The notes under the pieces: model-generated
What the model saw: the letters and a program-made list of their open reading frames with translations, nothing else
Told to the model about the DNA's origin: nothing
Database searches by the model: none
Made by a program: the position numbers and the translations under genes
From: a virus
Virus record (IMG/VR): IMGVR_UViG_3300007177_000160
Location: 32,001 to 96,000 of that record
Length of the DNA: 64,000 bases
Strand: one strand, 5' to 3'
Shown here: in pieces, positions 4,513-52,200 of the stretch
Position numbering within the stretch: the first letter of the stretch is position 1
How the letters are laid out: every line of letters starts with the position of its first letter

Positions 4513-4796
4513 CAAAACAAGAATTAGAGACACTGAACGGGTTGTTTAATAAAAAATCTACTCTTGAATCAAGACTCAATGAAGTTACTTTTCCTGTTGA
4601 TGCTAACTATAGAATTAAAAATGTAGAAGTTGAGGTGGAGTATTATACCAGAAACGGAGCTGTTCGACCTATTTTAAAAAAATTACCAATGACAAACCAA
4701 GAAGTCAGGCATTACTTAAATAGAGAAAGAAATAAAATAATGCTAGAACTCCTTGACATCAATCATCAAATCGATAAAGTAAAAATAACAAAATGA
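4509..4796 (+). CDS. hypothetical protein
   Basis: ATGA-coupled. Confidence 0.75.
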   Translation: MTKQELETLNGLFNKKSTLESRLNEVTFPVDANYRIKNVEVEVEYYTRNGAVRPILKKLPMTNQEVRHYLNRERNKIMLELLDINHQIDKVKITK

Positions 4797-28134: not shown

Positions 28135-29121
28135 CTAAATAATTTTGCCGTCAATAATCTTCATATTATTAACATGGAAGGAAAGATCGGAATTAACTTC
28201 CACAAAAGCAAATCCATGTGACCATTTTGTGTAAGCAAAAGGTCTATAATCAGGTGATAAAGTACAAAGACAACCCATTGACCAAACGCCAGTAGATTCT
28301 CCGTTGATGTTGTTTTCGGAGTGGTGAGATACTTGATGGTTGTGTCCAAACAAAGTAGAAGACTTAGCCTTTAAAAACATTCCTCTTGCAGGGTTAACAG
28401 GTGAGAATACACTTTCTCCCATTTCGTGTCCGTGCAATACGTTCAATTTACCTAATTTAATAATCTCCCTATTAACCAAGTTGATTTTAAACTCACTCAA
28501 TGCTAACAGGTTTTCAAACTTCAAATTGTCAACGTCGCTAAACTCTTTGGCGTTACGTAATAGGTAATTACGAACACGCTCCTCGTGGTTACCTAACTTG
28601 TAATATATAGGTATAATTGGAAATAGTTCACGCAAGTAAGAGAAAAACGCTTTAGTCATCTCGATTTCCTCACGTAACGATGGCATACCTACCTCCTTAA
28701 TAAACGAACTTACTGGATGGCAGTCCATTATATCTCCATTTAGAATGATACAATCTATGTCATTGTTTAATCCCCACTCTAAGGCCGTAGACACAGCATC
28801 CATATCGTGATAAGGTATGTGTATGTCAGATAAAACTAAATAACGTCCTTCCTTTAGGTGAACGTTAGCCATTTCTTTGTTGTGGGAGAATACTTTTAGT
28901 TTTTCTAATCCCTCTTGAATTGTAGATTTATTAGTCACAAATGATTTGTCTTTTAAAGCCTTAAAATGATAGTTCCCTTTTACTCCCCTAAAATATCTAA
29001 TCGTATCTCTTACTCTCTCAATAGATGTAAGTTGTGGGTTTTCTTCTAAGATTAGTTTAGCAAGAGTGCGGTTCGGAACGTCAGGATACTTTTCTAAGTA
29101 AGCCTTAACGATTTCTCTCAT
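28135..29121 (-). CDS. calcineurin-like metallophosphoesterase with N-terminal helical domain
   Basis: SDIH, GDIMD, GNHE, HGH and GHNH motifs. Confidence 0.9.
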   Translation of the reverse strand: MREIVKAYLEKYPDVPNRTLAKLILEENPQLTSIERVRDTIRYFRGVKGNYHFKALKDKSFVTNKSTIQEGLEKLKVFSHNKEMANVHLKEGRYLVLSDIHIPYHDMDAVSTALEWGLNNDIDCIILNGDIMDCHPVSSFIKEVGMPSLREEIEMTKAFFSYLRELFPIIPIYYKLGNHEERVRNYLLRNAKEFSDVDNLKFENLLALSEFKINLVNREIIKLGKLNVLHGHEMGESVFSPVNPARGMFLKAKSSTLFGHNHQVSHHSENNINGESTGVWSMGCLCTLSPDYRPFAYTKWSHGFAFVEVNSDLSFHVNNMKIIDGKII

Positions 29122-37803: not shown

Positions 37804-40800
37804 TTAACTTCCGCCTTTACAGAAATTCTTAAAGGCTTCGTTTTGTTCTGATAACTCATTAAAGGAAGCTTTGATTGCTTCTGCACGAATAGCTTCATAG
37901 TTTTCAGGAATCACATCTAAGTTGGCAGCGCTAGCTACAGTGGTCATAGACACAATAGGTTTGGCATCTCGCACCTCAAACATTTTTGGTAAGACTACAT
38001 TATCTCCGATTAAGTTAATGTGCTTAGCAAAAATAGTTTTTATTTGACTAGGTGTCCAACCTGCAAGCTTTATTCCTATTTCAGTTACTAAAAACTCTAA
38101 TTCAGGATTTTGACGTGCTGTTTCAAGCATAGCTACTATAGAATTTTCTACTACAGATAGACTTACGCTGCGTTTGTTGCCTATGCGTACTACTTGCTCA
38201 CCTTGATTATTAGTGTCGACCTGTGCATACTTTGTAATTACACCAAAAGATTTTCCTTGTTGGCCTTCCATAAGTTGATTTACGACACCGTACTCAGCCC
38301 ACATACCTCTAGTGCCTTTATCATACACCGTGTAGTTTGCTTGTGCATTGCCAAACATTGCATATCCAGCCCCACCTGCTCCATGATGGCCCGCAGTATT
38401 AGCACCAAATACAAATACTTGATTAGGCTCTAACTTAGTAATTTCTTTTGGAGTGTATTTACGTTGTTTAATTGCTTCTTGTCTAACAGGACTAATTGGC
38501 ATATTTGCAGTTAGAGGCATTACTCTACGCATTGTTATAGTAACTCTGTAGGAACCTGGCTCATAAGTCTTGCCATCAATTGCAGTAGTTAATTCAGGCA
38601 GAAAACTGTCTTGGGGTTTAGGAAAAGTTCTATGGAATACTTGTCTATTTACTCCATTTACTCCAAAAACATAAGCACTTCCAGCTTGAAGACTGAGCAT
38701 CTTAGGAGTTTCATTTCTAAACTCAATAGAAAAGTTACCTGTACCTCCAAGATTAATTCCTATCACAGGATAATTAACTGCAGATAAACTTTCATCAACG
38801 TCGTTATGAGAACTTATAAAACTATCTGCCTCGTATAAATTAATAATAGCACCGTCATAATGCGTCATATCAACTCCAGACGCTTTCTGCATTAACTCGC
38901 GGAATCTAGGACTAATAGGAGCTAAAGGTTGATTATTTATTGAGGTATTATAGTAACCGTATTTAGTTTTATTCGCGGGATTAATAGGATCAGGAATATT
39001 AATGGCCTGTTTATCAGGATTATTGGATTTATAATCCCATCTTAATCCTAATCCAATCATCTTACTAGCAGATTTACCTTTGTTTGTTTTAGCTGCTTGG
39101 CTCTCTAGATAAGGTTTTAAATAATTAAATAATTCTAATTGTTCTTCTTTTGTAAGAGCACCTTGATTTAAGTAAATACCTTCACTTACTTTCTCGCCTT
39201 TTAGTCCAATATTAGCTTGTTGTGTAGTATTAATTTGAGATATTTCTTCACCCTTAAACGTAGGAGTAATAGAATCACGGAACAAATCGTAATCTTTAAA
39301 GTAAAGTAGGTCTTTGTTGGTTCCGTATTTACCTCGTAACTCTGGGTGGTTAGCTAAGAATCTATCCAAGAACTTAGAGATAAAAGTATTGCTTCCTGTT
39401 AATAAAGAGGAAAGTTTATCTTGTAGTATATCGTTTACTACATCAGTGTAGTCTGCTGCATCAGTAACTAAGTATTCGGCTGCTTCTTTAGTAACTTCTT
39501 TTGTTTCTTGTTGAGTTACGAACTGATAAACGATGTCACTTACCTGATCGAATGTGTTGTTCATCTCTTCAGTAAAGTTTTCGATGATACTTGACATACG
39601 AGTTGTGTAGATTGACTCAGGGATATAAGGCAAATAAGAATCGTATTTCTTATTAAGCTGAGATCCTATAATCCCTGCGTAACCATAAGCCAAGAAGAAA
39701 GATTGCATATCTCTTTGAAGTTCTGCGTCCTCTTCGTTATCTGGATTTAAATTAGGATGTGACCAATTTAAACCAGACTCAAACTCTTCACGTAAGATAT
39801 TTACAGAATCTTCTGCATCTACGCTAGAGAATCCTGTGCGGATAAAGGCTGAGCTTTCTTCGGTAGCAAAAGATACTCCGTCGAAGATTAAATTGTCTGA
39901 AGCAATTTTACGCTCAAACAAACGAGCTTTTAGATTCTCATAAATAGCTACGATGTTTCCTGGATTTCTTTTATCCAACAAAGATTCTATCTCAGCAACT
40001 TGTGGTACATTGTTTCTGAACAATGCATACAACAAATCATTCTTGAATATACGAGAAAACTGGTCGTAGTTTAATTCAGGATTAGCTTTCTTAACAGCAG
40101 AGTATGCAGTAGTGATTAGTGTTCCTAACTTGCTACTAGCAGATATTGGGAATATTTTCTCAAACGAGTTAAAGATTTCTTCTTGAATCTGGAAAGGAGA
40201 AACAACACTCTCACTAATTACTCTCTTTACTCCGTCTTCGTTAAAGAACTTTTCTTTAATCAATAGGCGCAACTCATTCGCTCCCTTACGGAAAGCTTCA
40301 AAGTTCTGTGGGGAGAAAGTATCAAAGTCTGTATTAGATGAAAGAGTAAATAATTTTGACTGCTGGTCTTTAACACTCAAGAAACTAACGAATCTAATAA
40401 GATTACCATAACTTGTAGTATCATTTAATACTATTGATGGATTTTCTTCAATGATATCAGCAACTAATGCTTTTAGTTTAGATAGTTTAAAGTTACCAAA
40501 GTTGCCTATAGATTTTGAAAGTAACTCTACTTCAGGTAAAGTTTCATAGTTTTCATTGCTCCAGGCTGTTGACTTTTCATAAATATCACTAAGTATGCTT
40601 TGTATAAATTCAGAGTCACTCATACGAGCATTACCTCTACCATAGGTAATAATACTGCTATTTGACGGTTTAGTTTCTCCAGCTGCTGTATAATTTAAGT
40701 TTACTAACTTAACAATATCAGCAAAACTAGAACCTACTCCGACCATGTAGTTAGTCACGGGGTTGATTCGCACGTTTAAGTTAATCCAAGCAACTTGGTC

Positions 40801-43800
40801 TTCTTTTTCAATATCTACGTGTGCAGTGATTAACTGTCCAGTTAGATCTCCAATACGAACTCCGTCTACTCCAAAAGACTTACTAAAGTCTAGAATACCC
40901 TCAGCTTTACCGTTAGCGTTTAAAGGATAGGCTTTAACCGCTTTTTTATCTACTACACGCAAGTTAGCTTTCTGTAAGATAGCAAACAATACGTTCATCT
41001 TTGCATCCTGCCCCAAAGCCTTCTTAAATGAGTTTAAACGGTGTACATATAATTGATAGATAGGATTAACAATATTAGTGTACGAAGCTTTAGTCCATTC
41101 ATTCTGAATACCAAACTCTTTTGCTAATTTTTTAATCACATCTGAACTATTAGGTTTTAATAGTTTATCAAATACATCAGGTTGAGTTAATCTTTCACTT
41201 ACCGCAACAAGCAAACTATTAGTCATACGATTCCGTGTTCCTTTAATTTCATTAGTAAGGAACTGGTTTCTTTTAGATAGTGAGTTAATTTGACTACCTA
41301 ACGCATTAATTGCTTGGCTTAGTCCTTCGTTTTTGGCTTCTTTTAGAGCTTGTCTAACACGCTTTATCTCATCGTTAATCTCACGAGCTTTTGTAGTTAC
41401 AGGAGCAGATACTCCCGACATACGCTCGCGAATTAACTCAGCTAAAGTTTCCTTATCCATCTCTTCAAGTTCTAGTTCATCTTCAGAAATTGTATCAGCT
41501 GCTTTTAATTTTGCGTATAGTTCTTTTAGACGAACTGCATTAGGATCAAAACCATACTTCTCAATAATCTTAGCTACATCAGCAGCCAAAGCATTACGTT
41601 GAGCCAAAGTTTCTTTTAGGATAATCTTATTATCTGCTAACTCTTCTTTTAATTCTTTCTCGTATTCAAATGCTTCTTCAGCACTCATATCATTTACGCG
41701 GAAAGAACCATCGGCTTCTAGGAATGGGTCGTAACAGAACAACTTATCAATATCAAAGTCAGAACCTGACTTAATAACCATTTCATCAGGAACCAAAATA
41801 ATTTCCCCTGATTCTTCGGGTAAAAACTCAACGATTTCAAAATTCTCCATTGAGTTATAATCCTGACCAGGTACACGAATTGCAGCAATAGTTAAAGCTT
41901 TGTCTAATATATCTGCATACTTGCTTCTAAATAGAGGATTAGCTATCGCTTCATTTAATCTTTGAACAGCAGAAAATAAGTTAACAGGCTTTCCGAACTC
42001 ATCAAACTGTCCAATAGGTTTACCATTGTACTGTAAATTTAATAACGGATAGAAACCTTTTGAGAAAGAAACAATGGTTTCTGCTTTAGTTACTTTTCCA
42101 TCAACTAAGTCGTAGTATTTTAATGTTCTTCCTGGACGAATTAAAGATACTGGATACTGAACACGCTGTGCTCCTGGAACTTTCTGTTTAATGATAGCGT
42201 TCTTTAAAGAAGCAATCATTGTGCTTTCCATAATAGTTCTATCTACAAAAGCATCTAATGTATGTTTTAGTTGTCCGTTCTCTTTTAATTGAATTAAATC
42301 TTTAGTAGCCTCAGCTATATTCTTTTTAGATAATTCAGAAACAATAAAGTTTACTAACTTCTCTTGGTCTTCAATTTTAGATAAGAATTTAACTTTGTCA
42401 AAGTCAACTAAGTTTTCAATAGCTGTGCGGTACTCTTGGTATAACTCTTCACTCTCTGCAGGACTGTCTTTAAATAATAGTTTTCTAAACTGAGTACTAA
42501 AGATAGTCATGAATGTTTCTTTGTTCTCAATTAAAACTTGTTCTTTTAAGTACTGAGTATCAATTTTACCTACAGAGTTTGGAACATAGTTTGAGTTGAC
42601 TGAGCCGTCGCTATTAAATAAAGAGATTGGGTCTACAGTTTCGGCAATCTTAGTACCAGAACTAAATACTGCATAATCCGCAGATGATGCATGTAATTTT
42701 TGTAAGATAGAACCTAAAATAGGATCTCCTACAACTTCTGAAGGTAAGATAGGCTTAACAGAGTATTTATGGAATACAGGAATAGTTTTGTCTCCTACTA
42801 AGTTATGACCTGCGTACTGAAGTTTTTTAATAGTAAACGTGTAGTAAGGGCCTTCATTAAGTGCATTTTCTAATTCAGCCTGTACGTTTTCTCCACGTTG
42901 AGACTGTAGGTATAAAGCGTAAATACGATTTTGTCTATCAATCTCTTTCTTCATAGCTAAAGTAAGTCCAGTAGACATAGCATAGAAGTTTGCGTAGAAG
43001 TCTAATGTAGAAAATGCAGCAGCATCTTGTTTCTTTGCATCGGTATTATTTACATAATAACTAGCTAAGGTTACAGATTCTCCTGTAGCAGGGTCTACTA
43101 CTTTAGTTTGATACGCTGGACTGTTTTTAGCTGTTTGAGAATCAACACTCGTATCTTTTAGAACCAAGTAAGAGATTTTAGTTACATCGGTATTTAAATC
43201 AGGATTTACTTCTACCTTATTCTCGCCTAGTGCATTGTTATGCTCTAGGAAAGCTTTACGCTGGCTAAAGCCTGACTTATTTATTTCTTGAATATTTTGT
43301 TCGTCTAATAAAGCATAGCTACCGTAAGCGTTCCAAGCAGACAAACGCTTTTCAATATCTTTAGCATTTTTATAATAGTAAGGATGACCGAAGAATAACT
43401 TATGCTGCTCTATTCTAGAGAACATAGAAAATATATGGTAGCGAATTAAATCCCCATCTGATACAGTAGCAGTGTTTGAATCAAAAGCATTGTTTAAAAT
43501 ACCTTTACTAACATCGACACTCTTAGCTATATAGTTTGTGTACTGTTGTTTAACGCTGGCTAATAAATCAGGATTTATCTGCCCTAAAGCAGTAGATAAA
43601 CCACTAGGAGCCACATTTGCAAAGTAATTATACAATTCAATACGGGTAGCTTCATCAAAGATATCTTCAAAGTAAGTTAGTCTAGGTTTAGTATTTTCTT
43701 TATCTAAGAAAGGACTTACTTTAAAGAAAGGATTGCGAGAGTCGGCATACTTTTTAGCAACCTGTATTTCTGAATAAACATTAGGTAGAAGTATTGAATA

Positions 43801-46800
43801 AGTAACAGAGTCTGGAATAACTACTTTTCCTGGAGTATTAAAAGCATCATTATCGAAACCTAATTCTTTTAATAAGCTAGTAGGCATTACCAAAGATCTC
43901 GTGGTAGATTTACCCGATAAACGGTTTAATTCTTCTACGCCACGTTTAATAAAGCCCTGTATCTCACTGAAGTGTTTAAGGGACTCGGTAGAGTCTACAG
44001 TTTTAGTTGCATTGTCTTCTGTTTTAATTCCAAGTAAACTAGCAATCTCAGCAGTACGAGGTGTACCATCAGTTTCTACATTACGCTCACCAGTTACGAC
44101 ATTAAATAAATAATTTAAAAGTAAAGAGTAGTTACCGCCCCCATTAAAACTAGAATTTAACTGCGGATATGCTGCCAATAAAGATGGTAAAGTAGGATAC
44201 TTTTGGTAGTCGTTCATTGCAGCTACTATACGAGTCATATACGTATGAGGAGTAACTGACCACACTTTTTTATTAAGTGCGTTGAATTGCATATCATTTG
44301 CGTATTCAACATTCACTTTAATTTCAGCATCAACTAATTTGTAAAGAGAACGTACTTCAGAGTTAACATTCTTGCCTTCAGAATCTTTATGAGTACCTCT
44401 TAAAACTTCCAAAGGTTTGTAGATAAGACCAGTTTCTGTAGACTGTGCAAAGCTTTGAATCTTATTGTAGATTAACTTAACATCAGACTGTAAGTCTTTC
44501 GCGCTTCTAGTTAAGATTGTTTGCTTAGCCAACTCAGTAAAGTTAAAACCAAGTGGCTCTAGAAGATTTAATAGTTGAAGCTTGTACTCATTAAGTGTTT
44601 CTTCTGTGACAGAAACTCCTGCAGGAATAGCAGGAATTGCGTAGTCTGCAAAGTATTTGTCTGTATTTAAGTAATAACTTCCTGTTTTTGGGTCTACTAG
44701 CTTATATAAACCTGGGGATGAAGTAAATACATTATCCCACATTTTAGAAAGGTTTAATACATCAGAAGTTTTTGCTTTATAAATTTGGAAGTCTACAAAT
44801 GAATCTCCGTTTTCATTTTCTACTACTCGAATTTCTTTAATGAATCCATCTACATAAGGCATAGCAAATGTATTGTAGAATAGATTTTTAAAGTTTAAAG
44901 TAGATTGCTTTACATTAGCTTCTTTAGGGTTAGGCAAGTAAGCTAACAATGCGCGGAACTGAGGTTGTTCTTTAGATAATTGAGTTAAACGATTATAAAG
45001 TTCCTCGTAAGAGTTTGAACCAGATAAAGTTCTTTGTAAACTATTCCAGTTTAAATCAAAACTGCCTACAGTATTTACTCCAAAGACATTATCCTTAACA
45101 GGTCTGCGATTCTTGTAAAGAGGTAAACTCTTAATAGCAGAAATAATTAAAGGATGCGCTGTAGTCTTCTGAGACATTTCCTCAATAGAAGTTTCTAAAC
45201 GAGCAAACTCTCTAAGCGGACCAGTTTCCTGTTCGTCCTCTACTACTTCTTCTATAGCTATTTTTCTTATTTTATCACTAAACAAAGGAGAGTTAGCTTT
45301 AAAGAAAGTAAATAGAGTATTAGAGTTGGTATATAAAAGAGATGTGTAGTTAAACTTACGAGTTGCAGCTGCAGTAGGATTTTCTTCTACTTTAGCAGCA
45401 TACCGTGTGCGAGCTTCTCCTATCAGTCTGTGCATCTCTTGTAACACTGCTTTAGTTAATTGAGGATTCTCAACAACGTTTACAAAACTTGCTCCGTAAG
45501 GCTGACCTAGTTTAGCGGCAACATCAACAAACAAAGAATCCATTTGGGTTAGAATCTGCTGACTCTCACGGAAACTAAATACTTTGTCTGTATTGTCTGG
45601 GTGTTTTACTACAAGCTTAGCACTGTATAAAGTTTTAAAGTAACCTGCATCCTCATTACGAGTGTAGGAACTAATGTTACCTTTGTATAACTGAGAGAAG
45701 TATTTGTCTACAGTTAGTTTATCAGTAAAGAAACCTGTTAAGAAATCCCAAATTTTCTGGAAGATATTCTTAGTGCTTTCGTACTTAGCAATCTCGCTTG
45801 GCATTTCAGTACCATTGCTTAAAGCAAATTGACGGAAAGACTCGGCTAGCTTCTCTTCTAATTCTACTAAAGGAAGTTCTCCATAAATCTTTCTTGCTTC
45901 TGCGTATAAAGCTTCACGCTGTGCAGGGGTTAAATACATTTGAGAAAACTCGTGCCAAGCTTCGTGGTATGCTTCTGCGTAGTTAGCATCTGCAAACAAA
46001 GTTATAGCTGCTTTAGACCAAGTAGCATAAGCTAGAGGATGGCGTAAGGTTTTATCAAAAATAAACTTAGTATTCTTAAAGATAGGGTGACTATTTACCC
46101 ACTCTTCTGCTGCTTTATTTTGAGCCTCAGTAATATCATTCTCTAACTCTAAAGACCTAAAGAAATCGTCTTCAAAAGGATTTGGAATGTTTGCTGGTGG
46201 TGGCTGGTCCCAAGGATCTCTAAAGTCAAAGGTATCACTAGAAAATTCATCTTGTGCAAACTCTTTTGATGCTGCACGTTCTTCCTTAGCAATAATTCCT
46301 CTTATGCCGTCATACTTTGGATTTTTCTTAGGATTAAATCTTCCATAGACTGTATCTATGTTGCGAGAATTTATTGTACCAATACCTCCAGGATAAGTAG
46401 TCATAAAGTCTACTAACTCCGAAGGACTTACTTCACGACCAATTCGATCTTCAATAAGTTGAGCAATTTGGTCTAAACCTAATATACTAGTTGCAGGGGT
46501 ACTTCTTTTGGGGAAATACGTCTTCTTAATTTTATCTCCGTAAACTCCGTCTAAACTATTTTTATCACCAAAGCGAATGAAAGATTGTTTGCTGGTTATA
46601 AATGCACCACCAAATAAACTATCGATAGCTGCCTGTAAGTCATTTAAGAAAGACCCTGTACGGAATGCTTCTAAATCAACTTGGTATTCTTGATACATTT
46701 CAGCCTGGGCTCTTTGTATAGCCTCTCTGCGCTCATTAGCATCTTGTATTCTTCTGGAAGGGAGTTGTGCAGCCTCTTCAGCTTCTTCGGGAGTTAGTTG

Positions 46801-49800
46801 AGGTTGATCTACAAATAAGTCTAGTTGTTTTTCTAATTGCTCTAGTTGCTCTTCAGGAATTTCAACAGTTTCTGCTTCAATAATAGCTGTGCTTGGAATA
46901 TCAGAAACTAAAGGAACTTCAGGTAATACATCTTCAAATCCTTTCTCTGCATTTGAGATAGTGCTTTCTATTGTAAGTTCTGGACTTAAAGCAAAACGAG
47001 AATTACCACGCATTATTACTTGTGCACCAAACTCAGGACTAAGAACTAATGCTTCGTAGTTAGGGAAACTCTTTAATCTTATTCCATTTTGTTCATAAAG
47101 CAATGTAGAAGGTTGATTTGTAGTAAGCGATTGCTTACTTACCATATAGCGTAAGTTAGCAAAAGCCCCACGAATTAGCCCAAGCTGAACTTCTTCGCTA
47201 CCAGTAATAGCTTGATACTTACCGTTCTTATTTTTCTTTTTAAATACTAATTTGTTGTTCTGCGTAGAACCTAAAATTAATCCTTGAGTGTCTGCATTAA
47301 AGTAGAAAAGATTTTCTAAATAAGATTTAAATGCTTCTGCACTCTCGTAGATTTCAGAAGGTAGTCCTGTAGGAAGAATACCATTATTAAATGCGTCTAC
47401 TAGTTTAATTAAAAAATCAGGACTTGCTTGTGGGAGTTTTACAGGTTGGTACTGATAAGGGTCGCCAGCAATCTCCACATAGGTATAACCTGGATTTAAA
47501 ATAAACTTACCAAATGGAGTAGCGTATTCTTCGGCTGTAGTTTCAAAGTGAACATACACCTTAGCTTTTTTCAAGTCTGATACAGCTACTTGCTTAGAGG
47601 AAGCTAATCCAATAATGTCTGCTGTAACAAATCCGTTCTCTCCTAAAGACTCTACAGTGTTTCTAAGCTGAAGTTCTGCTTGATTAACGTTTAGATGTTT
47701 TTTAGTCTTTAAAGCCGCAAGAACTGGAATATCATCAATAGATCCCTCTAAACCATTTTCTCTAAAGTAGACAGGGTTTAAATTACTATCTACAATTAAA
47801 CTCATAATCCCAGAACCAATCTCTTTAGGATTTGATACTAGATATTTAATAAAGTCATTATTATGTAGAGGAATACCTTTTACTTGTAAAGCAGAACGCA
47901 ATAATCTTTCTTCTTCACTAGTAAGTTTTCTATTTAACTGCTGTAAGTTTTCTAATAACTCGATAGAGTCTGGAAGTAACTTACGATAAATATTCATGGT
48001 ACTTGCCATGTATGCTTTATACGCAGGTTTAGCCTCACGGCTTTCTGCATATACAGCCAGAACTCTTTGGATAAAAGAAACATTAGGATCGTCAAGTAAC
48101 GACTTATTATCTTGGGAGATACTAGTCATACTTAAAGTCAAACTAAATGGACCTTCTACTAATTCAAGACTAAGTAACTGTTGACCTACTTCCTGATTAG
48201 TTTGATCTGGAACAACTACAGGTTCTTCATTAATTACTAACTCAGGCTGCATTGTTGGAGCAACTTCAGTAGGAGTTACCTCAGCTTCAGGCGTAGGATT
48301 TAATAATGTTGATATATGTTTACCTAATTGACTAACAAAAGTGTTTGATGGGCCATTAGGTAATCCTAAAATCAAAGAAGTATCAAGGGAACCTTGCTCT
48401 GCTTTATTTATAAAGTCGGTAATCTTTGCTTCATTACCAGGGAAAGCAGCAACAAGAATACTATAAATATTAGTTAAGTCTGATTCATCTTTAATATCAG
48501 CTAGTAATCTAGAACGAAACTCACTGACAATTTGACTGCGTTCTTCTGGATCTAAGTTAGTATTACTTAAAGTATTATTTAATTCATTTACTAAAGCTGA
48601 GTATTGTTGATACAAATCAGCATTTACAGGATGTAAATCTACGTCTACGTCTTGTAAATTAATTTCCTCACCTAATGGTGACGCAGGATCTACTTCTACT
48701 GGTTGTCCTGCTTGTGCAGCGGCTAGTGCTTCAGCTTCTCTTGCGGCTTGTTCTTCTTGTTGTCTTTTAGCTTCTGCCTCGGCTTGTGCAGCTTGGAAAG
48801 CAGAACCTTGAAACGAACTGTTAACAGGCTGACTTTTTGCAGCTTCAGTAGCTAACGTATTTGCATTTTGAATTGCAACTAAGTCGTAGGTGCCGTCTTC
48901 GTCCTTTGCAAAGTAATAATCGTTATTTCTAATCTGTGCTACTCTAGTGCTAAGAGTATCCTTACCGTTTTTAGCAATTCTTTGTTTATTCTTCTGTAAC
49001 TCAATTGCTAAATTAAAAATCTGAGTTTTAGACAAGTTAGGATGTAGTGCTGCATTAACTTCCCCAGATTCAATTTCTTCTGGAGTTAATTGAGCCATAG
49101 CCATTCTTGTTTGTTGAATAGACTTTAATTCTAAGTTTTGTAAGTTCTTACTAACCTCCTGTAAAAATACATCGGGGTTTGTATACACAGAACGCTCCAA
49201 CATCAAAGCCTTAATTCTGTCTACAATAGGTTTTGTAGGCATAAAAGGAACACTAACTCCCTGAGCGCCTTCTGAAAGCATCTCAGGCATTGGTCCTTCT
49301 AGTGCAGATAAGTTAGCAAGTGGATATCCAAAAACTTCTGCAAAAGTCTGTAACTCTAAGTTGGTTAAAGACTCGGGACTGTTCTCTGCTTGATTAACAA
49401 AGTTAGCTACTCTGTCATTTAAGTTCGCCAGTACACTATTATAGAAGTCGTTATAGTTTTCTTTTAGGAAATCAAACTCTGGAGTTTGTTTTTTATTTAA
49501 GTTATTGATAACGGGATTTAAACCAGCAGCCATCTGTAGCATCTCTGCCATTGAGACTTCCCCTAATTTATCTTTACGCTGTTCAAATACTCTCTTTAAG
49601 TTTGCTTGTTTTTCCTGCTCCGTTAATGCTTTGTTTTGAGAAATTAATTGACGAGTGCTTAGTACTTCATTAGTAACCTGGGTAGTCATTGCTTCATACT
49701 CAGCTAATTGTTCAGGAGTAAAGTTTGAAGTATCTGTTCCTAATAAATCTTCTTGGTGAAGAAGGTTATTAAAGTAACTGTATTGTCTTTCTCTATCTAC

Positions 49801-52200
49801 TGCTAATCCATAGATATCTCTAATATTACCCAAGTCATCAGTCATAGACTGAAACTTAGTAGCAAGCTGTTGGATTTTAGCGACTTGTTTAATTTCTTCC
49901 TCTCTAGTAATCTTACCAGCTTCTCTGTCCCTAGCTGCTAGTTGTTTATACAACTCAGGGTTATTTGCTACGTTCCAACGGGCTTGTTCTAAACGTTGTA
50001 CGTAGGGCATGTACTGCCAACGTTCAACTTGCTTACCATTAGCATCTAGAACAGGATTACTAAATTGATCGAACTGTTTAACCTTAGTTGGAGTATTAAC
50101 CTGGAAACCAGAAATAAACAAAGAAGGAATAAATCCTTCAACCAAAGTTTCTTTAAAACTATCCCAACTTAATTCGTTTTGTTTTTCGTATTCAAAGTTA
50201 TTTGGTTGAGCCACATAGTTATCCACTAAATGGTTTCCTACTAAAGACGCAAGTTCTTCTATGGTTTCTTGAGTTGCCCCTGAGATAGTTTTACGAATAG
50301 CAGTAGGTGCAACTATCTTTAAAGCATCTAACTTACTTAGAGAACCTGGAGGAACTAAAGTAAGCAAACGATCTGCCATAAACGACATCTTTCCAATGCC
50401 AGGAACTTTAGAAAGACCTTTGCTAATGCCATCTAATGCAGGATCAATATATTTATCAAACATACCTATAGTCTTTCCTCCTTTAAAGAAAGAAGCGTCA
50501 GGTACTATTGTCTCTGTTAAACCCTCTACTACAGCTCTAGTAAGTGCTACGTTAAACGCATCATTATCATCCTTAAAGAAAGAACGTTCTTCTGCATAAA
50601 AACGCGGGAATGTCGTTGCGGTTACAGAACCAAAGGTAGAAATATAAGGCGCTAACTTTGGTAAAGTCTCTGCCATACCTACTGTCTTACCTATATTAGC
50701 ATAAGACAACCCAGCTCCCCTAGCCATAGAACCAATACCTCGGGTAATAGCAACAGTAGCTGCTACGTCAAAGGCAATAGGAAGTGTGGCTTCAATAGGT
50801 GCTTGTAGGTTCCAGTTAGTTACTGTGTTTCCTTTGTCGTCTTTATATTCAAACTTAGCTTGATCAAAACTGATAGCATCTCCGTAGATATCACGGGTGA
50901 TTTCATTTTGGTCAATCTTATTATTTTTATTTATATCTGCTCCTAAAAACAAAGTTGGAGGTGCAGCTAAATTAGCCCCAGATCTAATTCTATATCCAGT
51001 TTCATTGTCACCTATTAAATGAGTTAACCCTGCAACTTGGTTTAAAAAGTTTCTTTTTGTAGCCTGTGCTCCTCTAACAAAAATACCATTCTCTCCAAAC
51101 CACTGTACTTCATCCCCTGCGGCAAAGTTTCTATTCTTTACCATTTCTAAAGATTGTCTATGCTTTTCTTTAGCATAAACTTCTGGGTAGAATTTCTTTA
51201 AGTATACGTCAGGATTTGATTCGTTTTTAAGTTTAGTATTAAGTTGACCTAAGTAATCAATTTCCTTGGTAAGATTAGCTTTAGTTAGAGCTAATTGATT
51301 CTTTTGATTCTGATCTACAGATTCTGTAATTTGTTTATCTAAATCATAAATCTGTTGTTGGTAGTTTTGGATTTTGTTTTGGACAGCATACTGCTTAGTA
51401 GCAGCATAAGTCATGTCAAACTGAGCATACAAGTCGTCGTCAGTTTTAACATAAGTATTTTTAAATACCTCTAAGTCTTCTGGGTTATATAAACGAGAAC
51501 CGTAAACATTGGACTCTAAATCAGCAAGCTCATTTATTACGTCGCTGTTTCTTTTGTTAGGACTTTTGATAGCATAACTTAATCTTTGGTTGTCCTGATT
51601 AAACTTACCTAACTCTTGTACTCTAGTATTTAAATCTTTAGAGTTTAAATAGTCTTCTAAGTCTTGGTTAGCTAATTGAATTTTAGCTTTAGAGTTTGCT
51701 ACGTCTACTATCTTTTTATATTCTTTACTAAGCTTGGCTTTCCCCGCATCATCTAGTAATGATATATTGTCATTAAAAGTAGTTCGTAAATCTTTTAACG
51801 CTTGGTCAATTTCTTTTGATGAGCCACTCTGAATAGCTGTTTTAAATGCAGCAGTAGCAGCAATTACTCCAGAATCAGTAGAGAAGTTTGCTAAGTCTTT
51901 TAGTTCTCTTCCAGTAAAAAACTCGCCTATACTTCTGTCAGGTACCATAAGTCCAACAATAGGACTAGGCTGGGCTTTTAATCCAGCATTAATAGACAGA
52001 ATTGAATTAATACTATTAGAAAGTTCTTGGTCTTCTTTTCTTTGTTGAGCAAAATATCTTTCGTTACTTAAATCAAGTTCTCTGACAGTTTGGCCAAGTG
52101 ACTGGACTTTTACAAGATCTGCAGCAATGCGTTCTGATTCAGTATTTAATTGCTCTCCTGGTTTTACCAAGGATTTATAGTATTCGGGAGATTTTGGCAT
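37804..52200 (-). CDS. virion RNA polymerase polyvalent protein (zincin + two-barrel RNAP + AlkB-like + macro-like)
   Basis: RVPGQ...GSDFDIDKL (41746-41760); YHEAWHEF (45952-45966); HND..H..RxxxxxR; VFVFGANTAGHHGAGGA. Confidence 0.9.
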   Translation of the reverse strand: MPKSPEYYKSLVKPGEQLNTESERIAADLVKVQSLGQTVRELDLSNERYFAQQRKEDQELSNSINSILSINAGLKAQPSPIVGLMVPDRSIGEFFTGRELKDLANFSTDSGVIAATAAFKTAIQSGSSKEIDQALKDLRTTFNDNISLLDDAGKAKLSKEYKKIVDVANSKAKIQLANQDLEDYLNSKDLNTRVQELGKFNQDNQRLSYAIKSPNKRNSDVINELADLESNVYGSRLYNPEDLEVFKNTYVKTDDDLYAQFDMTYAATKQYAVQNKIQNYQQQIYDLDKQITESVDQNQKNQLALTKANLTKEIDYLGQLNTKLKNESNPDVYLKKFYPEVYAKEKHRQSLEMVKNRNFAAGDEVQWFGENGIFVRGAQATKRNFLNQVAGLTHLIGDNETGYRIRSGANLAAPPTLFLGADINKNNKIDQNEITRDIYGDAISFDQAKFEYKDDKGNTVTNWNLQAPIEATLPIAFDVAATVAITRGIGSMARGAGLSYANIGKTVGMAETLPKLAPYISTFGSVTATTFPRFYAEERSFFKDDNDAFNVALTRAVVEGLTETIVPDASFFKGGKTIGMFDKYIDPALDGISKGLSKVPGIGKMSFMADRLLTLVPPGSLSKLDALKIVAPTAIRKTISGATQETIEELASLVGNHLVDNYVAQPNNFEYEKQNELSWDSFKETLVEGFIPSLFISGFQVNTPTKVKQFDQFSNPVLDANGKQVERWQYMPYVQRLEQARWNVANNPELYKQLAARDREAGKITREEEIKQVAKIQQLATKFQSMTDDLGNIRDIYGLAVDRERQYSYFNNLLHQEDLLGTDTSNFTPEQLAEYEAMTTQVTNEVLSTRQLISQNKALTEQEKQANLKRVFEQRKDKLGEVSMAEMLQMAAGLNPVINNLNKKQTPEFDFLKENYNDFYNSVLANLNDRVANFVNQAENSPESLTNLELQTFAEVFGYPLANLSALEGPMPEMLSEGAQGVSVPFMPTKPIVDRIKALMLERSVYTNPDVFLQEVSKNLQNLELKSIQQTRMAMAQLTPEEIESGEVNAALHPNLSKTQIFNLAIELQKNKQRIAKNGKDTLSTRVAQIRNNDYYFAKDEDGTYDLVAIQNANTLATEAAKSQPVNSSFQGSAFQAAQAEAEAKRQQEEQAAREAEALAAAQAGQPVEVDPASPLGEEINLQDVDVDLHPVNADLYQQYSALVNELNNTLSNTNLDPEERSQIVSEFRSRLLADIKDESDLTNIYSILVAAFPGNEAKITDFINKAEQGSLDTSLILGLPNGPSNTFVSQLGKHISTLLNPTPEAEVTPTEVAPTMQPELVINEEPVVVPDQTNQEVGQQLLSLELVEGPFSLTLSMTSISQDNKSLLDDPNVSFIQRVLAVYAESREAKPAYKAYMASTMNIYRKLLPDSIELLENLQQLNRKLTSEEERLLRSALQVKGIPLHNNDFIKYLVSNPKEIGSGIMSLIVDSNLNPVYFRENGLEGSIDDIPVLAALKTKKHLNVNQAELQLRNTVESLGENGFVTADIIGLASSKQVAVSDLKKAKVYVHFETTAEEYATPFGKFILNPGYTYVEIAGDPYQYQPVKLPQASPDFLIKLVDAFNNGILPTGLPSEIYESAEAFKSYLENLFYFNADTQGLILGSTQNNKLVFKKKNKNGKYQAITGSEEVQLGLIRGAFANLRYMVSKQSLTTNQPSTLLYEQNGIRLKSFPNYEALVLSPEFGAQVIMRGNSRFALSPELTIESTISNAEKGFEDVLPEVPLVSDIPSTAIIEAETVEIPEEQLEQLEKQLDLFVDQPQLTPEEAEEAAQLPSRRIQDANERREAIQRAQAEMYQEYQVDLEAFRTGSFLNDLQAAIDSLFGGAFITSKQSFIRFGDKNSLDGVYGDKIKKTYFPKRSTPATSILGLDQIAQLIEDRIGREVSPSELVDFMTTYPGGIGTINSRNIDTVYGRFNPKKNPKYDGIRGIIAKEERAASKEFAQDEFSSDTFDFRDPWDQPPPANIPNPFEDDFFRSLELENDITEAQNKAAEEWVNSHPIFKNTKFIFDKTLRHPLAYATWSKAAITLFADANYAEAYHEAWHEFSQMYLTPAQREALYAEARKIYGELPLVELEEKLAESFRQFALSNGTEMPSEIAKYESTKNIFQKIWDFLTGFFTDKLTVDKYFSQLYKGNISSYTRNEDAGYFKTLYSAKLVVKHPDNTDKVFSFRESQQILTQMDSLFVDVAAKLGQPYGASFVNVVENPQLTKAVLQEMHRLIGEARTRYAAKVEENPTAAATRKFNYTSLLYTNSNTLFTFFKANSPLFSDKIRKIAIEEVVEDEQETGPLREFARLETSIEEMSQKTTAHPLIISAIKSLPLYKNRRPVKDNVFGVNTVGSFDLNWNSLQRTLSGSNSYEELYNRLTQLSKEQPQFRALLAYLPNPKEANVKQSTLNFKNLFYNTFAMPYVDGFIKEIRVVENENGDSFVDFQIYKAKTSDVLNLSKMWDNVFTSSPGLYKLVDPKTGSYYLNTDKYFADYAIPAIPAGVSVTEETLNEYKLQLLNLLEPLGFNFTELAKQTILTRSAKDLQSDVKLIYNKIQSFAQSTETGLIYKPLEVLRGTHKDSEGKNVNSEVRSLYKLVDAEIKVNVEYANDMQFNALNKKVWSVTPHTYMTRIVAAMNDYQKYPTLPSLLAAYPQLNSSFNGGGNYSLLLNYLFNVVTGERNVETDGTPRTAEIASLLGIKTEDNATKTVDSTESLKHFSEIQGFIKRGVEELNRLSGKSTTRSLVMPTSLLKELGFDNDAFNTPGKVVIPDSVTYSILLPNVYSEIQVAKKYADSRNPFFKVSPFLDKENTKPRLTYFEDIFDEATRIELYNYFANVAPSGLSTALGQINPDLLASVKQQYTNYIAKSVDVSKGILNNAFDSNTATVSDGDLIRYHIFSMFSRIEQHKLFFGHPYYYKNAKDIEKRLSAWNAYGSYALLDEQNIQEINKSGFSQRKAFLEHNNALGENKVEVNPDLNTDVTKISYLVLKDTSVDSQTAKNSPAYQTKVVDPATGESVTLASYYVNNTDAKKQDAAAFSTLDFYANFYAMSTGLTLAMKKEIDRQNRIYALYLQSQRGENVQAELENALNEGPYYTFTIKKLQYAGHNLVGDKTIPVFHKYSVKPILPSEVVGDPILGSILQKLHASSADYAVFSSGTKIAETVDPISLFNSDGSVNSNYVPNSVGKIDTQYLKEQVLIENKETFMTIFSTQFRKLLFKDSPAESEELYQEYRTAIENLVDFDKVKFLSKIEDQEKLVNFIVSELSKKNIAEATKDLIQLKENGQLKHTLDAFVDRTIMESTMIASLKNAIIKQKVPGAQRVQYPVSLIRPGRTLKYYDLVDGKVTKAETIVSFSKGFYPLLNLQYNGKPIGQFDEFGKPVNLFSAVQRLNEAIANPLFRSKYADILDKALTIAAIRVPGQDYNSMENFEIVEFLPEESGEIILVPDEMVIKSGSDFDIDKLFCYDPFLEADGSFRVNDMSAEEAFEYEKELKEELADNKIILKETLAQRNALAADVAKIIEKYGFDPNAVRLKELYAKLKAADTISEDELELEEMDKETLAELIRERMSGVSAPVTTKAREINDEIKRVRQALKEAKNEGLSQAINALGSQINSLSKRNQFLTNEIKGTRNRMTNSLLVAVSERLTQPDVFDKLLKPNSSDVIKKLAKEFGIQNEWTKASYTNIVNPIYQLYVHRLNSFKKALGQDAKMNVLFAILQKANLRVVDKKAVKAYPLNANGKAEGILDFSKSFGVDGVRIGDLTGQLITAHVDIEKEDQVAWINLNVRINPVTNYMVGVGSSFADIVKLVNLNYTAAGETKPSNSSIITYGRGNARMSDSEFIQSILSDIYEKSTAWSNENYETLPEVELLSKSIGNFGNFKLSKLKALVADIIEENPSIVLNDTTSYGNLIRFVSFLSVKDQQSKLFTLSSNTDFDTFSPQNFEAFRKGANELRLLIKEKFFNEDGVKRVISESVVSPFQIQEEIFNSFEKIFPISASSKLGTLITTAYSAVKKANPELNYDQFSRIFKNDLLYALFRNNVPQVAEIESLLDKRNPGNIVAIYENLKARLFERKIASDNLIFDGVSFATEESSAFIRTGFSSVDAEDSVNILREEFESGLNWSHPNLNPDNEEDAELQRDMQSFFLAYGYAGIIGSQLNKKYDSYLPYIPESIYTTRMSSIIENFTEEMNNTFDQVSDIVYQFVTQQETKEVTKEAAEYLVTDAADYTDVVNDILQDKLSSLLTGSNTFISKFLDRFLANHPELRGKYGTNKDLLYFKDYDLFRDSITPTFKGEEISQINTTQQANIGLKGEKVSEGIYLNQGALTKEEQLELFNYLKPYLESQAAKTNKGKSASKMIGLGLRWDYKSNNPDKQAINIPDPINPANKTKYGYYNTSINNQPLAPISPRFRELMQKASGVDMTHYDGAIINLYEADSFISSHNDVDESLSAVNYPVIGINLGGTGNFSIEFRNETPKMLSLQAGSAYVFGVNGVNRQVFHRTFPKPQDSFLPELTTAIDGKTYEPGSYRVTITMRRVMPLTANMPISPVRQEAIKQRKYTPKEITKLEPNQVFVFGANTAGHHGAGGAGYAMFGNAQANYTVYDKGTRGMWAEYGVVNQLMEGQQGKSFGVITKYAQVDTNNQGEQVVRIGNKRSVSLSVVENSIVAMLETARQNPELEFLVTEIGIKLAGWTPSQIKTIFAKHINLIGDNVVLPKMFEVRDAKPIVSMTTVASAANLDVIPENYEAIRAEAIKASFNELSEQNEAFKNFCKGGS

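What the first reader, a model, noticed from the sequence alone, without database searches (positions are those of the whole stretch)
38520..39200. AlkB-like 2OG-Fe(II) dioxygenase fused to the virion RNA polymerase
Seen: after the RNAP core (DFDID at about aa 3481) comes IINLY...SHNDVDE (HxD at 38800-38808), INLG, a distal His (38632-38634) and RVTITMR, a complete AlkB-type catalytic set. Established: crAss-like vRNAPs are packaged and injected, and AlkB enzymes oxidatively demethylate DNA and RNA; AlkB-replicase fusions are known in plant RNA viruses. Inference: a transcription-coupled repair or base-modification activity delivered with the genome, repairing damage acquired in the free virion or countering methylation-based defence.
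Basis: partly seen in the sequence, partly recalled or inferred. Interest (0 to 1): 0.75.

Follow-up and report, generated by a model that had tools for sequence, protein, structure and literature searches.

The report
Swappable AlkB cassette on virion polymerase
A freshwater crAss-like phage carries an intact AlkB-type DNA/RNA de-alkylating enzyme as an optional add-on near the end of the giant RNA polymerase that such phages are known to inject with their DNA; phages with and without the add-on coexist in one lake sample, so it looks like an exchangeable early-infection tool, though its substrate is untested.

Summary
A 4798-aa ORF (window 37804-52200, minus strand) has a full-length Pfam 2OG-FeII_Oxy_2 match at aa 4341-4558 (E 1.9e-17). 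Every motif is at the stated coordinates. The AlphaFold model (pLDDT 95) matches E. coli AlkB best (Foldseek E 2e-12, TM 0.8).

The host protein is homologous to the characterised phi14:2 virion RNA polymerase gp66, with the DFDID motifs aligned. The genome has a crAss-like TerL-portal-MCP block.

New here: the domain is an optional in-frame cassette.
- The nearest orthologue (76-84% identical throughout) lacks it, and only 4 of 78 close orthologues carry it.
- AlkB copies at least 75% identical sit in 67 giant proteins whose polymerase cores are about 25-31% identical.
- One freshwater metagenome holds both alleles on the same flanks. Depths are 8.65 with the cassette, 6.8 without and 16 on the flanks.
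- The domain is under purifying selection (dN/dS about 0.1).
- In this protein it sits beside a macrodomain-like A1S_2505 domain. Relatives carry NADAR, SF1 helicase or DUF7831 domains after AlkB.

Most likely it is a pre-loaded dealkylase that works on single-stranded template DNA or early RNA at entry. Delivery and substrate are inferred, not shown.

This scan had already reported the same architecture on other genomes (e1-5935957, e1-6006622). I found no paper describing it.

The parts
37804..52200 (-). Giant 4798-aa ORF (P0001): crAss-like virion RNA polymerase polyprotein with C-terminal accessory domains
   Evidence: Single open frame. Homology to phi14:2 gp66. More than 170 giant orthologues found.
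41665..42780 (-). Segment aa 3141-3512, homologous to phi14:2 gp66 residues 1023-1402 (polymerase core around the catalytic loop)
   Evidence: BLASTP E 4e-10, 23% identity over 408 columns. tblastn of gp66 against the phage's own genome gives E 3.5e-8.
41746..41760 (-). DFDID catalytic motif (aa 3481-3485), aligned with gp66 D1361-D1365
   Evidence: The DFDxD motif is described as the hallmark of crAss-like vRNAPs in bioRxiv 10.1101/2020.03.07.982082.
45952..45966 (-). HEAWH (HExxH, zincin-like) motif at aa 2079-2083. Motif only; no family assigned.
   Evidence: Seen in the translation. It recurs at a comparable position in many orthologues. No Pfam or PHROG match.
38473..39245 (-). Optional in-frame cassette (773 nt, aa about 4320-4576) holding the AlkB domain and its linkers
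   Evidence: Run X1 has a contig that joins 38472 to 39246 through 17 other letters (depth 6.8). It also has a contig carrying the cassette (38443-39289, depth 8.65). The flanks have depth 16. The short allele stays in frame, reading TFKGE-AVVEQP-IKQRKY. The nearest orthologue P0072 has an 11-aa linker at this place.
38527..39180 (-). AlkB-type 2OG/Fe(II) dioxygenase domain (aa 4341-4558)
   Evidence: Pfam PF13532 E 1.9e-17 over the full profile. Model pLDDT 95.4. Best fold matches are E. coli AlkB.
38800..38808 (-). HxD iron ligands H4465/D4467. The following D4469/E4470 correspond to E. coli AlkB D135/E136.
   Evidence: Aligned with E. coli AlkB H131/D133/D135/E136. Invariant in 17 of 17 relatives.
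38632..38634 (-). Distal iron ligand H4523 (corresponds to E. coli H187)
   Evidence: Invariant in alignment A1.
38833..38847 (-). IINLY (aa 4452-4456): N4454/Y4456 align with E. coli N120/Y122 (their role as 2-oxoglutarate contacts is from my own knowledge)
   Evidence: hhalign of A1 against E. coli AlkB. Invariant in alignments A1 and A2.
38527..38547 (-). RVTITMR (aa 4552-4558): R4552 and R4558, assigned to E. coli R204/R210 by motif spacing (R-x5-R)
   Evidence: Lies inside the full-length Pfam match. R218, T222 and R224 in domain numbering are invariant in A1. The hhalign alignment stops before this motif, so the E. coli correspondence is by motif spacing only.
37981..38466 (-). A1S_2505-family domain (aa 4579-4740), predicted macrodomain-like, at the C-terminus
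   Evidence: NCBIfam NF049995 E 2e-18. phrog_2072 E 7e-21. The model is only moderate (pLDDT 61). VIA-align gives mostly macrodomains: OSH55 scaffold Z 9.0, M. tuberculosis DarG Z 8.6, Chikungunya virus macro Z 7.8, DarTG Z 7.2.

Best explanation
The stretch encodes a genuine AlkB-family Fe(II)/2-oxoglutarate dioxygenase domain with all catalytic residues intact. It is carried as an optional in-frame cassette in the C-terminal accessory region of a crAss-like virion RNA polymerase polyprotein. By homology with phi14:2 gp66, the protein is probably packed into the capsid and ejected into the host with the DNA (inferred). The tethered AlkB domain would then use host Fe(II), 2-oxoglutarate and O2 to hydroxylate N-alkyl groups on bases in single-stranded nucleic acid. 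The likely targets are 1-methyladenine and 3-methylcytosine type lesions in the unwound template or in early transcripts. This would restore bases that otherwise block the polymerase, before any phage gene is expressed (inferred). AlkB is one of several interchangeable modules in this region. The others are a macrodomain-like A1S_2505 domain, NADAR, an SF1 helicase and DUF7831. Two of these (macrodomain-like, NADAR) belong to families known to reverse base modification. The cassette is gained, lost and exchanged between distant polymerases, as expected for a host- or niche-specific genome-protection or counter-defence tool.
For: Domain identity:
- Pfam PF13532 E 1.9e-17 over the full profile.
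- Model pLDDT 95.4, with E. coli AlkB as the top fold hits at E 2e-12 and TMt 0.8.
- N120/Y122, H131/D133/D135/E136 and H187 of E. coli AlkB align with identical residues.
- These residues and the R-x5-R motif are invariant in 17 relatives.
- dN/dS is 0.06-0.16 against the nearest copies.

Carrier protein:
- BLASTP against phi14:2 gp66 gives E 4e-10 with DFDID aligned.
- gp66 is virion-packaged, translocated into the cell and far more active on single-stranded DNA (10.1101/2020.03.07.982082). Single-stranded DNA is also AlkB's preferred substrate (own knowledge).
- The genome has a crAss-like TerL, portal and MCP block.

Cassette behaviour:
- The nearest orthologue P0072 (76-84% identical) lacks AlkB.
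- Only 4 of 78 close orthologues carry it, while 67 distant giant proteins have AlkB at least 75% identical.
- AlkB identity and core identity correlate weakly (Spearman 0.22 over 7626 pairs). There are 1176 pairs with AlkB at least 75% and core at most 30% identical.
- Three further AlkB+/AlkB- pairs have 89-97% identical backbones.
- Both alleles occur in one metagenome and their depths add up to the flank depth.

Module context:
- A macrodomain-like domain follows AlkB in this protein.
- NADAR, helicase, DUF7831 and a sub-threshold ART-PolyVal follow AlkB in relatives.
Against: No activity, substrate or virion proteomics exists for this protein. Packaging is inferred from a homologue that is only 23% identical over 408 aligned residues. 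The polyprotein may be cleaved (an HExxH motif is present), so AlkB might not stay tethered or might not be packaged at all. Double-stranded virion DNA is a poor source of 1-methyladenine and 3-methylcytosine (own knowledge), and no host defence that makes AlkB substrates is known to me. Most close orthologues do without the domain, so it is dispensable. Its position relative to DFDxD varies and is even N-terminal in a few relatives, which argues against strict transcription coupling. dS is saturated (above 1), so the dN/dS values are approximate.
Confidence: 0.55

Rival explanations
1. RNA-directed function. The injected AlkB demethylates RNA rather than DNA. The target could be host tRNA or rRNA marks (m1G, m1A or m3C type), to disturb host translation, or the phage's own early transcripts, as in the plant-virus AlkB domains.
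For: Viral AlkB domains of plant RNA viruses repair RNA efficiently (PMC2553587). Riboviria replicase polyproteins are among the fold matches in BFVD.
Against: The best fold and profile matches are E. coli AlkB, which accepts DNA and RNA alike, so nothing here discriminates between the two. The co-occurring modules (macrodomain resembling DarG, NADAR, SF1 helicase) are more often linked to DNA (own knowledge). The carrier is a DNA-dependent polymerase.
Confidence: 0.17
2. Epigenetic eraser or anti-restriction function. The domain removes regular methyl marks such as N6-methyladenine from incoming phage DNA or from host DNA, either to escape methylation-dependent restriction or to reset marks.
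For: Iyer et al. proposed such a role for the sporadic AlkB-like enzymes of jumbo phages (PMC7824862). The patchy, polymorphic distribution fits a host-specific counter-defence.
Against: The residues aligning with D135/E136 of E. coli AlkB are conserved. Those residues suit positively charged m1A/m3C lesions, and E. coli-type AlkB acts poorly on m6A in duplex DNA (own knowledge). The phage genome has no DNA methyltransferase of Pfam PF01555, PF02086 or PF00145, so there is no phage-encoded mark of its own to reset.
Confidence: 0.12
3. Not a nucleic-acid enzyme, or not active. It would be a protein or small-molecule hydroxylase, or a decayed domain kept as a structural spacer.
For: The 2OG oxygenase fold is versatile, and the NCBIfam AlkB equivalog models score far below their cut-offs.
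Against: All iron and 2OG ligands and the AlkB-specific D/E pair are invariant. The top 22 PDB fold matches are all E. coli AlkB, followed by ALKBH-family nucleic-acid enzymes. There is strong purifying selection. AlkB is much more conserved than the polymerase core (median pairwise identity 57% against 28%).
Confidence: 0.05
4. Assembly chimera: the AlkB stretch was joined to the polymerase gene by mis-assembly.
For: The record is a metagenome-assembled genome, and one sample contains an allele without the stretch.
Against: Contigs from three independent studies bridge both junctions (X1 record 2, X2 record 12, X3 records 17 and 20). The frame is kept in both alleles. More than 160 giant proteins from independent assemblies show the same architecture.
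Confidence: 0.01

Closest known systems
E. coli AlkB (DNA oxidative demethylase; PDB 3T4H, 2FDK, 3I3Q, 3BI3, 3KHC)
   Same: Same predicted double-stranded beta-helix fold (TMt 0.75-0.80, E 2e-12). Same residues at N120/Y122, H131/D133, D135/E136 and H187, plus an R-x5-R motif.
   Different: Only about 20% identical. It is a domain inside a 4798-aa phage protein, not a free 216-aa enzyme of the Ada regulon. It scores far below NCBIfam's AlkB equivalog cut-offs. It belongs to a narrow clade of 208 clusters (at 50% identity) among 1.84 billion representative proteins; most of the 150 listed members are giant proteins or look like contig-truncated pieces of them.
AlkB domains in replicase polyproteins of plant RNA viruses (Flexiviridae and others; van den Born et al. 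2008, PMC2553587)
   Same: An AlkB domain embedded in the polymerase-bearing polyprotein of a virus. Sporadic distribution suggesting gain and loss. Fold matches to such polyproteins appear in BFVD.
   Different: Those are RNA viruses whose genome is the RNA substrate, and the protein is made after entry. Here the carrier is a DNA-dependent RNA polymerase of a dsDNA phage that is thought to be pre-packed in the virion.
Cellulophaga phage phi14:2 gp66, the characterised crAss-like virion RNA polymerase (PDB 6VR4 from my own knowledge; bioRxiv 10.1101/2020.03.07.982082)
   Same: Homologous core with an aligned DFDID motif. The genome has related portal and terminase genes in the same order.
   Different: gp66 has 2180 aa and no AlkB, macro-like or other accessory enzyme domain. 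tblastn of the AlkB-plus-tail query found no AlkB-domain match in 50,697 GenBank phage records. The window's protein is over twice as long and looks like a fusion with neighbouring virion proteins, as the gp66 paper notes for some phages.
Polyvalent proteins of phages and conjugative elements (Iyer et al. 2017, PMC5512222)
   Same: A giant multidomain protein delivered with the DNA, carrying shuffled enzyme modules aimed at the first moments in the host. A relative has a weak ART-PolyVal match after AlkB.
   Different: That paper does not mention AlkB, 2OG dioxygenases or NADAR. Its hallmark MuF or other anchor domains were not found here, where the anchor is a two-barrel-type RNA polymerase.
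Free-standing AlkB-like 2OG dioxygenases of jumbo phages and giant viruses (Iyer et al. 2021, PMC7824862; BFVD hits)
   Same: Sporadic viral AlkB homologues with the same fold. One pithovirus protein combines the AlkB fold with a NADAR annotation, echoing the AlkB-NADAR pairing seen here.
   Different: Those are separate genes expressed after infection, not part of a presumed virion cargo protein.

Membership tests
AlkB family of Fe(II)/2-oxoglutarate dioxygenases (Pfam PF13532) | HxD...H iron-binding facial triad | tested here: met
   H4465, D4467 and H4523 align with E. coli H131, D133 and H187. Invariant in 17 of 17 relatives.
AlkB family of Fe(II)/2-oxoglutarate dioxygenases (Pfam PF13532) | 2-oxoglutarate contacts: N120/Y122 and R204...R210 (R-x5-R) | tested here: met
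   IINLY aligns with E. coli LINRY. RVTITMR lies inside the full-length Pfam match. N, Y and both R are invariant. The R-x5-R correspondence to E. coli rests on motif spacing, not on a printed alignment.
AlkB family of Fe(II)/2-oxoglutarate dioxygenases (Pfam PF13532) | Double-stranded beta-helix fold with the AlkB-type N-terminal extension (nucleotide-recognition region) | tested here: met
   Predicted model only: pLDDT 95.4. E. coli AlkB structures cover 230-240 alignment columns at TMt 0.75-0.80. G-Y of E. coli G75/Y76 aligns with G81/Y82 in domain numbering.
AlkB family of Fe(II)/2-oxoglutarate dioxygenases (Pfam PF13532) | Score above the family's curated threshold | tested here: met
   64.6 bits against a gathering cut-off of 31.2. 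The narrower NCBIfam equivalog models for bacterial AlkB are not met (37.5 against 231 bits), so it is not an orthologue of the bacterial enzyme.
AlkB family of Fe(II)/2-oxoglutarate dioxygenases (Pfam PF13532) | Oxidative dealkylation of nucleic-acid bases | not testable with these tools
   Needs an enzyme assay.
crAss-like virion RNA polymerase (phi14:2 gp66 type) | DFDxD catalytic motif in a region homologous to gp66 | tested here: met
   DFDID at aa 3481 aligns with gp66 1361-1365 within a 408-column BLASTP alignment, E 4e-10.
crAss-like virion RNA polymerase (phi14:2 gp66 type) | Two double-psi beta-barrel domains in one chain | not tested
crAss-like virion RNA polymerase (phi14:2 gp66 type) | Encoded in a crAss-like genome | tested here: met
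   The portal homologue of phi14:2 gp104 gives E 6e-44. PHROG portal, major head protein and TerL lie in adjacent order. The record is 114 kb with terminal repeats.
crAss-like virion RNA polymerase (phi14:2 gp66 type) | Present in the virion and ejected into the host | not testable with these tools
   Known for phi14:2 gp66 (MS/MS note in the GenBank record). Inferred here.
Macrodomain (for the neighbouring A1S_2505 domain) | Macro fold | tested here: inconclusive
   The model has pLDDT 61. Foldseek gave no match at E 0.001 or better. VIA-align's best rows are mostly macrodomains at Z 7-9, which is only just above that tool's stated background.
Polyvalent proteins (Iyer et al. 2017) | Giant protein combining several conflict-related enzyme domains, delivered with the DNA | tested here: inconclusive
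   Multidomain, shuffled architecture is shown. Delivery is inferred. The family's typical anchor domains were not found, and the paper does not list AlkB.

The most novel reading that the evidence does not exclude
AlkB, the macrodomain-like A1S_2505 domain and NADAR form an interchangeable first-minute toolkit on the injected polymerase for removing modifications from nucleic acid. By analogy with macrodomain or NADAR enzymes that reverse DarT-type DNA ADP-ribosylation, the AlkB cassette would point to a host defence not yet described. That defence would alkylate incoming single-stranded phage DNA or early RNA, making N1-adenine or N3-cytosine type lesions. The within-population presence/absence polymorphism would then reflect an ongoing arms race with hosts that do or do not carry it.
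Probability: 0.2. Interest if true: 0.85.

Novelty: new variant of a known kind. Interest (0 to 1): 0.62.

Why it matters
AlkB enzymes are known as cellular repair enzymes and as riders on plant RNA-virus replicases. A dealkylase pre-loaded on a DNA phage's virion RNA polymerase would mean the phage brings base repair or de-modification into the cell before any gene is expressed. The cassette behaves like a counter-defence gene. It is optional, it is exchanged between polymerases that are otherwise 25-31% identical, and it is polymorphic within one lake sample. It also shares its slot with domains predicted to belong to families that reverse ADP-ribosylation. This gives a concrete handle for asking whether bacteria attack incoming phage nucleic acid by alkylation. 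It also extends the 'polyvalent protein' idea to abundant aquatic crAss-like phages. The natural AlkB+/AlkB- allele pair is a ready-made comparison for metagenomic time series.

Tried and rejected
- megablast of 3 kb of the gene against 50,697 phage records found no match.
- tblastn of the AlkB-plus-tail query found only three weak matches, all to the tail domain, and no AlkB match.
- PHROG and Pfam scans of the whole 4798-aa protein found nothing for the polymerase part.
- phmmer of aa 1601-4000 against PDB sequences found nothing, so the link to gp66 rests on pairwise BLASTP and tblastn.
- PHROG scans found no family for four large neighbouring ORFs.
- The word-based search for the A1S_2505 tail gave only 4 relatives. 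Its alignment was therefore shallow and its model weak.
- Foldseek on that model gave no match at E 0.001 or better.
- The ESM Atlas hinted that A1S_2505 and DUF7831 are related, but BLASTP of the two tails showed no similarity. I do not claim they are kin.
- PF25176 found nothing in the phage's own genome, but its control rang nowhere, so that result is uninformative.
- An RNA-library run (X18) gave two short contigs, one inside AlkB and one inside the tail domain. With DNA carry-over possible and a small share of words, this is no evidence of transcription.
- I considered the idea that AlkB is simply slow-evolving and vertically inherited. I rejected it because close orthologues lack it, and because pairs with core at least 50% identical but AlkB at most 62% identical (94 pairs) coexist with the opposite pattern (1176 pairs).
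- Paper searches for crAss-like or Crassvirales together with AlkB, 2OG or dioxygenase, and for polyvalent proteins with AlkB, found no description of this fusion. The library lacks most subscription journals.
Full report
**Observation**

The finding lies in one uninterrupted 4798-aa ORF on the minus strand, window 37804-52200.
- DFDID at aa 3481-3485
- IINLY at aa 4452-4456
- SHNDVDE at aa 4464-4470, with H4465/D4467 at 38800-38808
- INLG at aa 4482-4485
- the distal histidine H4523 at 38632-38634
- RVTITMR at aa 4552-4558

Pfam's 2OG-FeII_Oxy_2 (PF13532, the AlkB-type family) matches aa 4341-4558 over its whole length, with E 1.9e-17 and 64.6 bits against a cut-off of 31.2. NCBIfam's bacterial AlkB equivalog models match with E 2e-9 but far below their cut-offs. 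The domain is therefore an AlkB-family member but not an orthologue of the bacterial enzyme.

**Fold and catalytic residues**

I aligned 36 relatives (A2) and used the alignment for AlphaFold2. The model has pLDDT 95.4 and pTM 0.92.
- Its 22 best Foldseek matches in the PDB are all E. coli AlkB structures (E 2e-12 to 4e-11, TMt 0.75-0.80, probability 1.00). Rice ALKBH1, human ABH2/3/5/6/8 and ALKBH1 follow.
- A profile comparison with E. coli AlkB aligns N120/Y122, H131/D133/D135/E136 and H187 with identical residues of the phage domain.
- In 17 relatives at 50-84% identity, these residues and the R-x5-R motif are invariant.
- dN/dS against the closest copies is 0.06-0.16. dS is above 1, so these values are rough.

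The domain looks catalytically intact and is under selection.

**The carrier protein**

PHROG, Pfam and PDB sequence searches do not recognise the rest of the protein. A direct BLASTP against the experimentally characterised virion RNA polymerase gp66 of Cellulophaga phage phi14:2 does. I fetched gp66 from KC821624.
- The alignment has 408 columns, E 4e-10, and places the two DFDID motifs in register.
- The window belongs to a 114,265-bp virus record with terminal repeats.
- That genome encodes a portal related to phi14:2 gp104 (E 6e-44) and a terminase related to gp105.
- PHROG calls TerL, portal and major head protein in adjacent order.

The gp66 paper shows that gp66 is packaged, enters the cell with the DNA and transcribes early genes. 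It is far more active on single-stranded or denatured DNA. The paper also notes that in some phages gp66 and its two neighbours are fused into one huge polyprotein (10.1101/2020.03.07.982082). 'Fused to the virion RNA polymerase' is therefore supported by homology. Packaging of this particular protein is inferred.

**The domain is an optional, exchanged cassette**

A search with the C-terminal 464 aa found at least 173 giant proteins (2.6-8.4 kaa). Nearly all of the 120 listed carry PF13532. The match typically covers only the AlkB half of the query, and the sequence after AlkB varies from 31 to about 3000 aa.

A search with the polymerase core gave the opposite picture.
- The closest orthologue, P0072, is 76-84% identical along its whole length and has no AlkB. 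An 11-aa linker replaces aa about 4317-4577.
- Only 4 of 78 close orthologues (core at least 44% identical) carry AlkB.
- 67 giant proteins have AlkB at least 75% identical although they are not close orthologues.
- Across 124 AlkB-bearing proteins, AlkB identity and core identity correlate weakly (Spearman 0.22). There are 1176 pairs with AlkB at least 75% and core at most 30% identical, and 94 pairs with the reverse pattern. A uniformly slow-evolving, vertically inherited domain cannot produce both.
- Three more AlkB+/AlkB- pairs have backbones 89-97% identical.
- The order of AlkB and the A1S_2505-like domain differs between relatives. In a few proteins AlkB lies N-terminal to DFDxD.

**Both alleles coexist in nature**

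The 1.3-kb stretch occurs nearly identically in at least nine runs from six or more freshwater or aquatic studies. I laid contigs of four runs on the stretch.
- Assemblies from three studies bridge both junctions with AlkB present.
- Run X1 also holds a contig that joins 38472 to 39246 through 17 other letters.
- Depths in X1 are 8.65 for the AlkB-bearing contig, 6.8 for the AlkB-less joint, and 16 to 16.5 on the shared flanks. The two forms add up to the flank depth.
- The short allele stays in frame, reading TFKGE-AVVEQP-IKQRKY.

This rules out a chimera and shows a segregating presence/absence polymorphism.

**Neighbouring modules**

In this protein AlkB is followed by an A1S_2505-family domain (NCBIfam E 2e-18, phrog_2072). 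Its model is only moderate (pLDDT 61). The structure-wide VIA search returns mostly macrodomains, including OSH55 scaffold Z 9.0, M. tuberculosis DarG Z 8.6, Chikungunya virus macro Z 7.8 and DarTG Z 7.2. Foldseek agrees only weakly.

In relatives, the sequence after AlkB holds:
- NADAR, with or without an SF1 helicase
- DUF7831
- in one case, a sub-threshold ART-PolyVal match

From my own knowledge, macrodomains and NADAR reverse ADP-ribosylation, including of DNA bases. AlkB thus sits among modules that undo chemical modification. A pithovirus protein in BFVD also pairs an AlkB fold with a NADAR annotation.

**Interpretation**

I take the domain to be a pre-loaded dealkylase. It would be delivered as part of the polymerase polyprotein and would act on single-stranded template DNA or early RNA during the first minutes of infection.
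- Shown: the enzyme family, intact residues, selection, homology of the carrier, and the cassette dynamics.
- Inferred: packaging, tethering, substrate and benefit.

The variable position argues against strict geometric coupling to transcription. Dispensability and polymorphism fit a niche- or host-specific role.

Three further observations bear on the rivals.
- The phage genome has no DNA methyltransferase of three major Pfam families. This removes one motive for an epigenetic-reset role.
- AlkB needs O2 (own knowledge).
- The holders found are oxic freshwater or aquatic samples, and tblastn of the AlkB-plus-tail query found no AlkB-domain match in 50,697 GenBank phage records. From my own knowledge, those records include many gut crAss-like genomes. 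This is suggestive only.

**Novelty**

None of the papers I could search describes AlkB on a crAss-like virion polymerase.
- The polyvalent-protein paper does not mention AlkB, 2OG dioxygenases or NADAR.
- The jumbo-phage survey mentions only sporadic free-standing AlkB-like genes.
- Plant-virus AlkB-replicase fusions are the nearest analogy (PMC2553587).
- JGI's automatic annotation already labels several of these giant proteins 'alkylated DNA repair dioxygenase AlkB'.
- Earlier follow-ups in this scan reached the 'swappable AlkB add-on' reading on other genomes (e1-5935957, e1-6006622).

My tests agree with those notes. They add the AlkB-less nearest orthologue, the quantified discordance between AlkB and core identity, and the two alleles in one sample.

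Noticed in passing
window 37981-38466 (-), aa 4579-4740 of the giant ORF: The C-terminal A1S_2505-family domain (NF049995, phrog_2072) is predicted to be macrodomain-like. M. tuberculosis DarG is among the best structural matches (Z 8.6), but the model is only pLDDT 61. It is conserved at 80% in the AlkB-less nearest orthologue, and 19 of 78 close orthologues have an A1S-like domain.
   Followed up: partly
window 45952-45966 (-), aa 2079-2083: An HEAWH (HExxH, zincin-like) motif recurs at a comparable position in many orthologues. No Pfam or PHROG family matches it. It could be a self-processing protease of the polyprotein.
   Followed up: no
L007:10001-18292 and proteins P0019, P0023, P0099: In a few relatives the AlkB domain lies about 1500-2000 aa N-terminal to the DFDxD motif instead of about 850-1100 aa C-terminal to it. 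The cassette is therefore not tied to one position.
   Followed up: no
L009:10688-13129, L013:9369-12683, L017:10691-12079: The sequence after AlkB in relatives carries NADAR plus a RecD/Pif1-like SF1 helicase (L009), a helicase alone (L013), or a weak, sub-threshold NADAR match (L017). Several tails of 290-1260 aa have no Pfam match at all (L018, L019, L023, L024, L026, L031).
   Followed up: partly
protein P0082, aa 3711-3806: There is a weak ART-PolyVal match (PF18760, 30.3 bits against a cut-off of 31.2) after AlkB in a relative. This links these proteins to the 'polyvalent protein' domain repertoire.
   Followed up: no
BFVD entry A0A481YQG8 (Pithovirus LCDPAC02): A 1058-aa giant-virus protein annotated as a NADAR domain protein also matches the AlkB model (E 1.6e-7). 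The AlkB-NADAR pairing may recur outside phages.
   Followed up: no
window 31635-37775, 52228-54093 and 54105-57011 (all -): Three large ORFs flanking the polymerase gene (2046, 621 and 968 aa) have no PHROG match. They may correspond to the virion proteins that flank gp66 in phi14:2.
   Followed up: no
window 61185-63995 (-): This ORF runs off the window's end and matches giant virion structural protein families phrog_37948 (E 3e-75) and phrog_15100.
   Followed up: no
window 28135-29121 (-): A metallophosphoesterase (phrog_221, E 3e-40) lies in the same strand block as the polymerase. phi14:2 also has a metallophosphoesterase (gp086) in its virion-protein block.
   Followed up: no
protein P0370: A 3558-aa protein related to the polymerase core is labelled by NCBI as coming from a 'Candidatus Hodarchaeales archaeon' MAG. 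It is probably a phage contig binned into an archaeal MAG.
   Followed up: no
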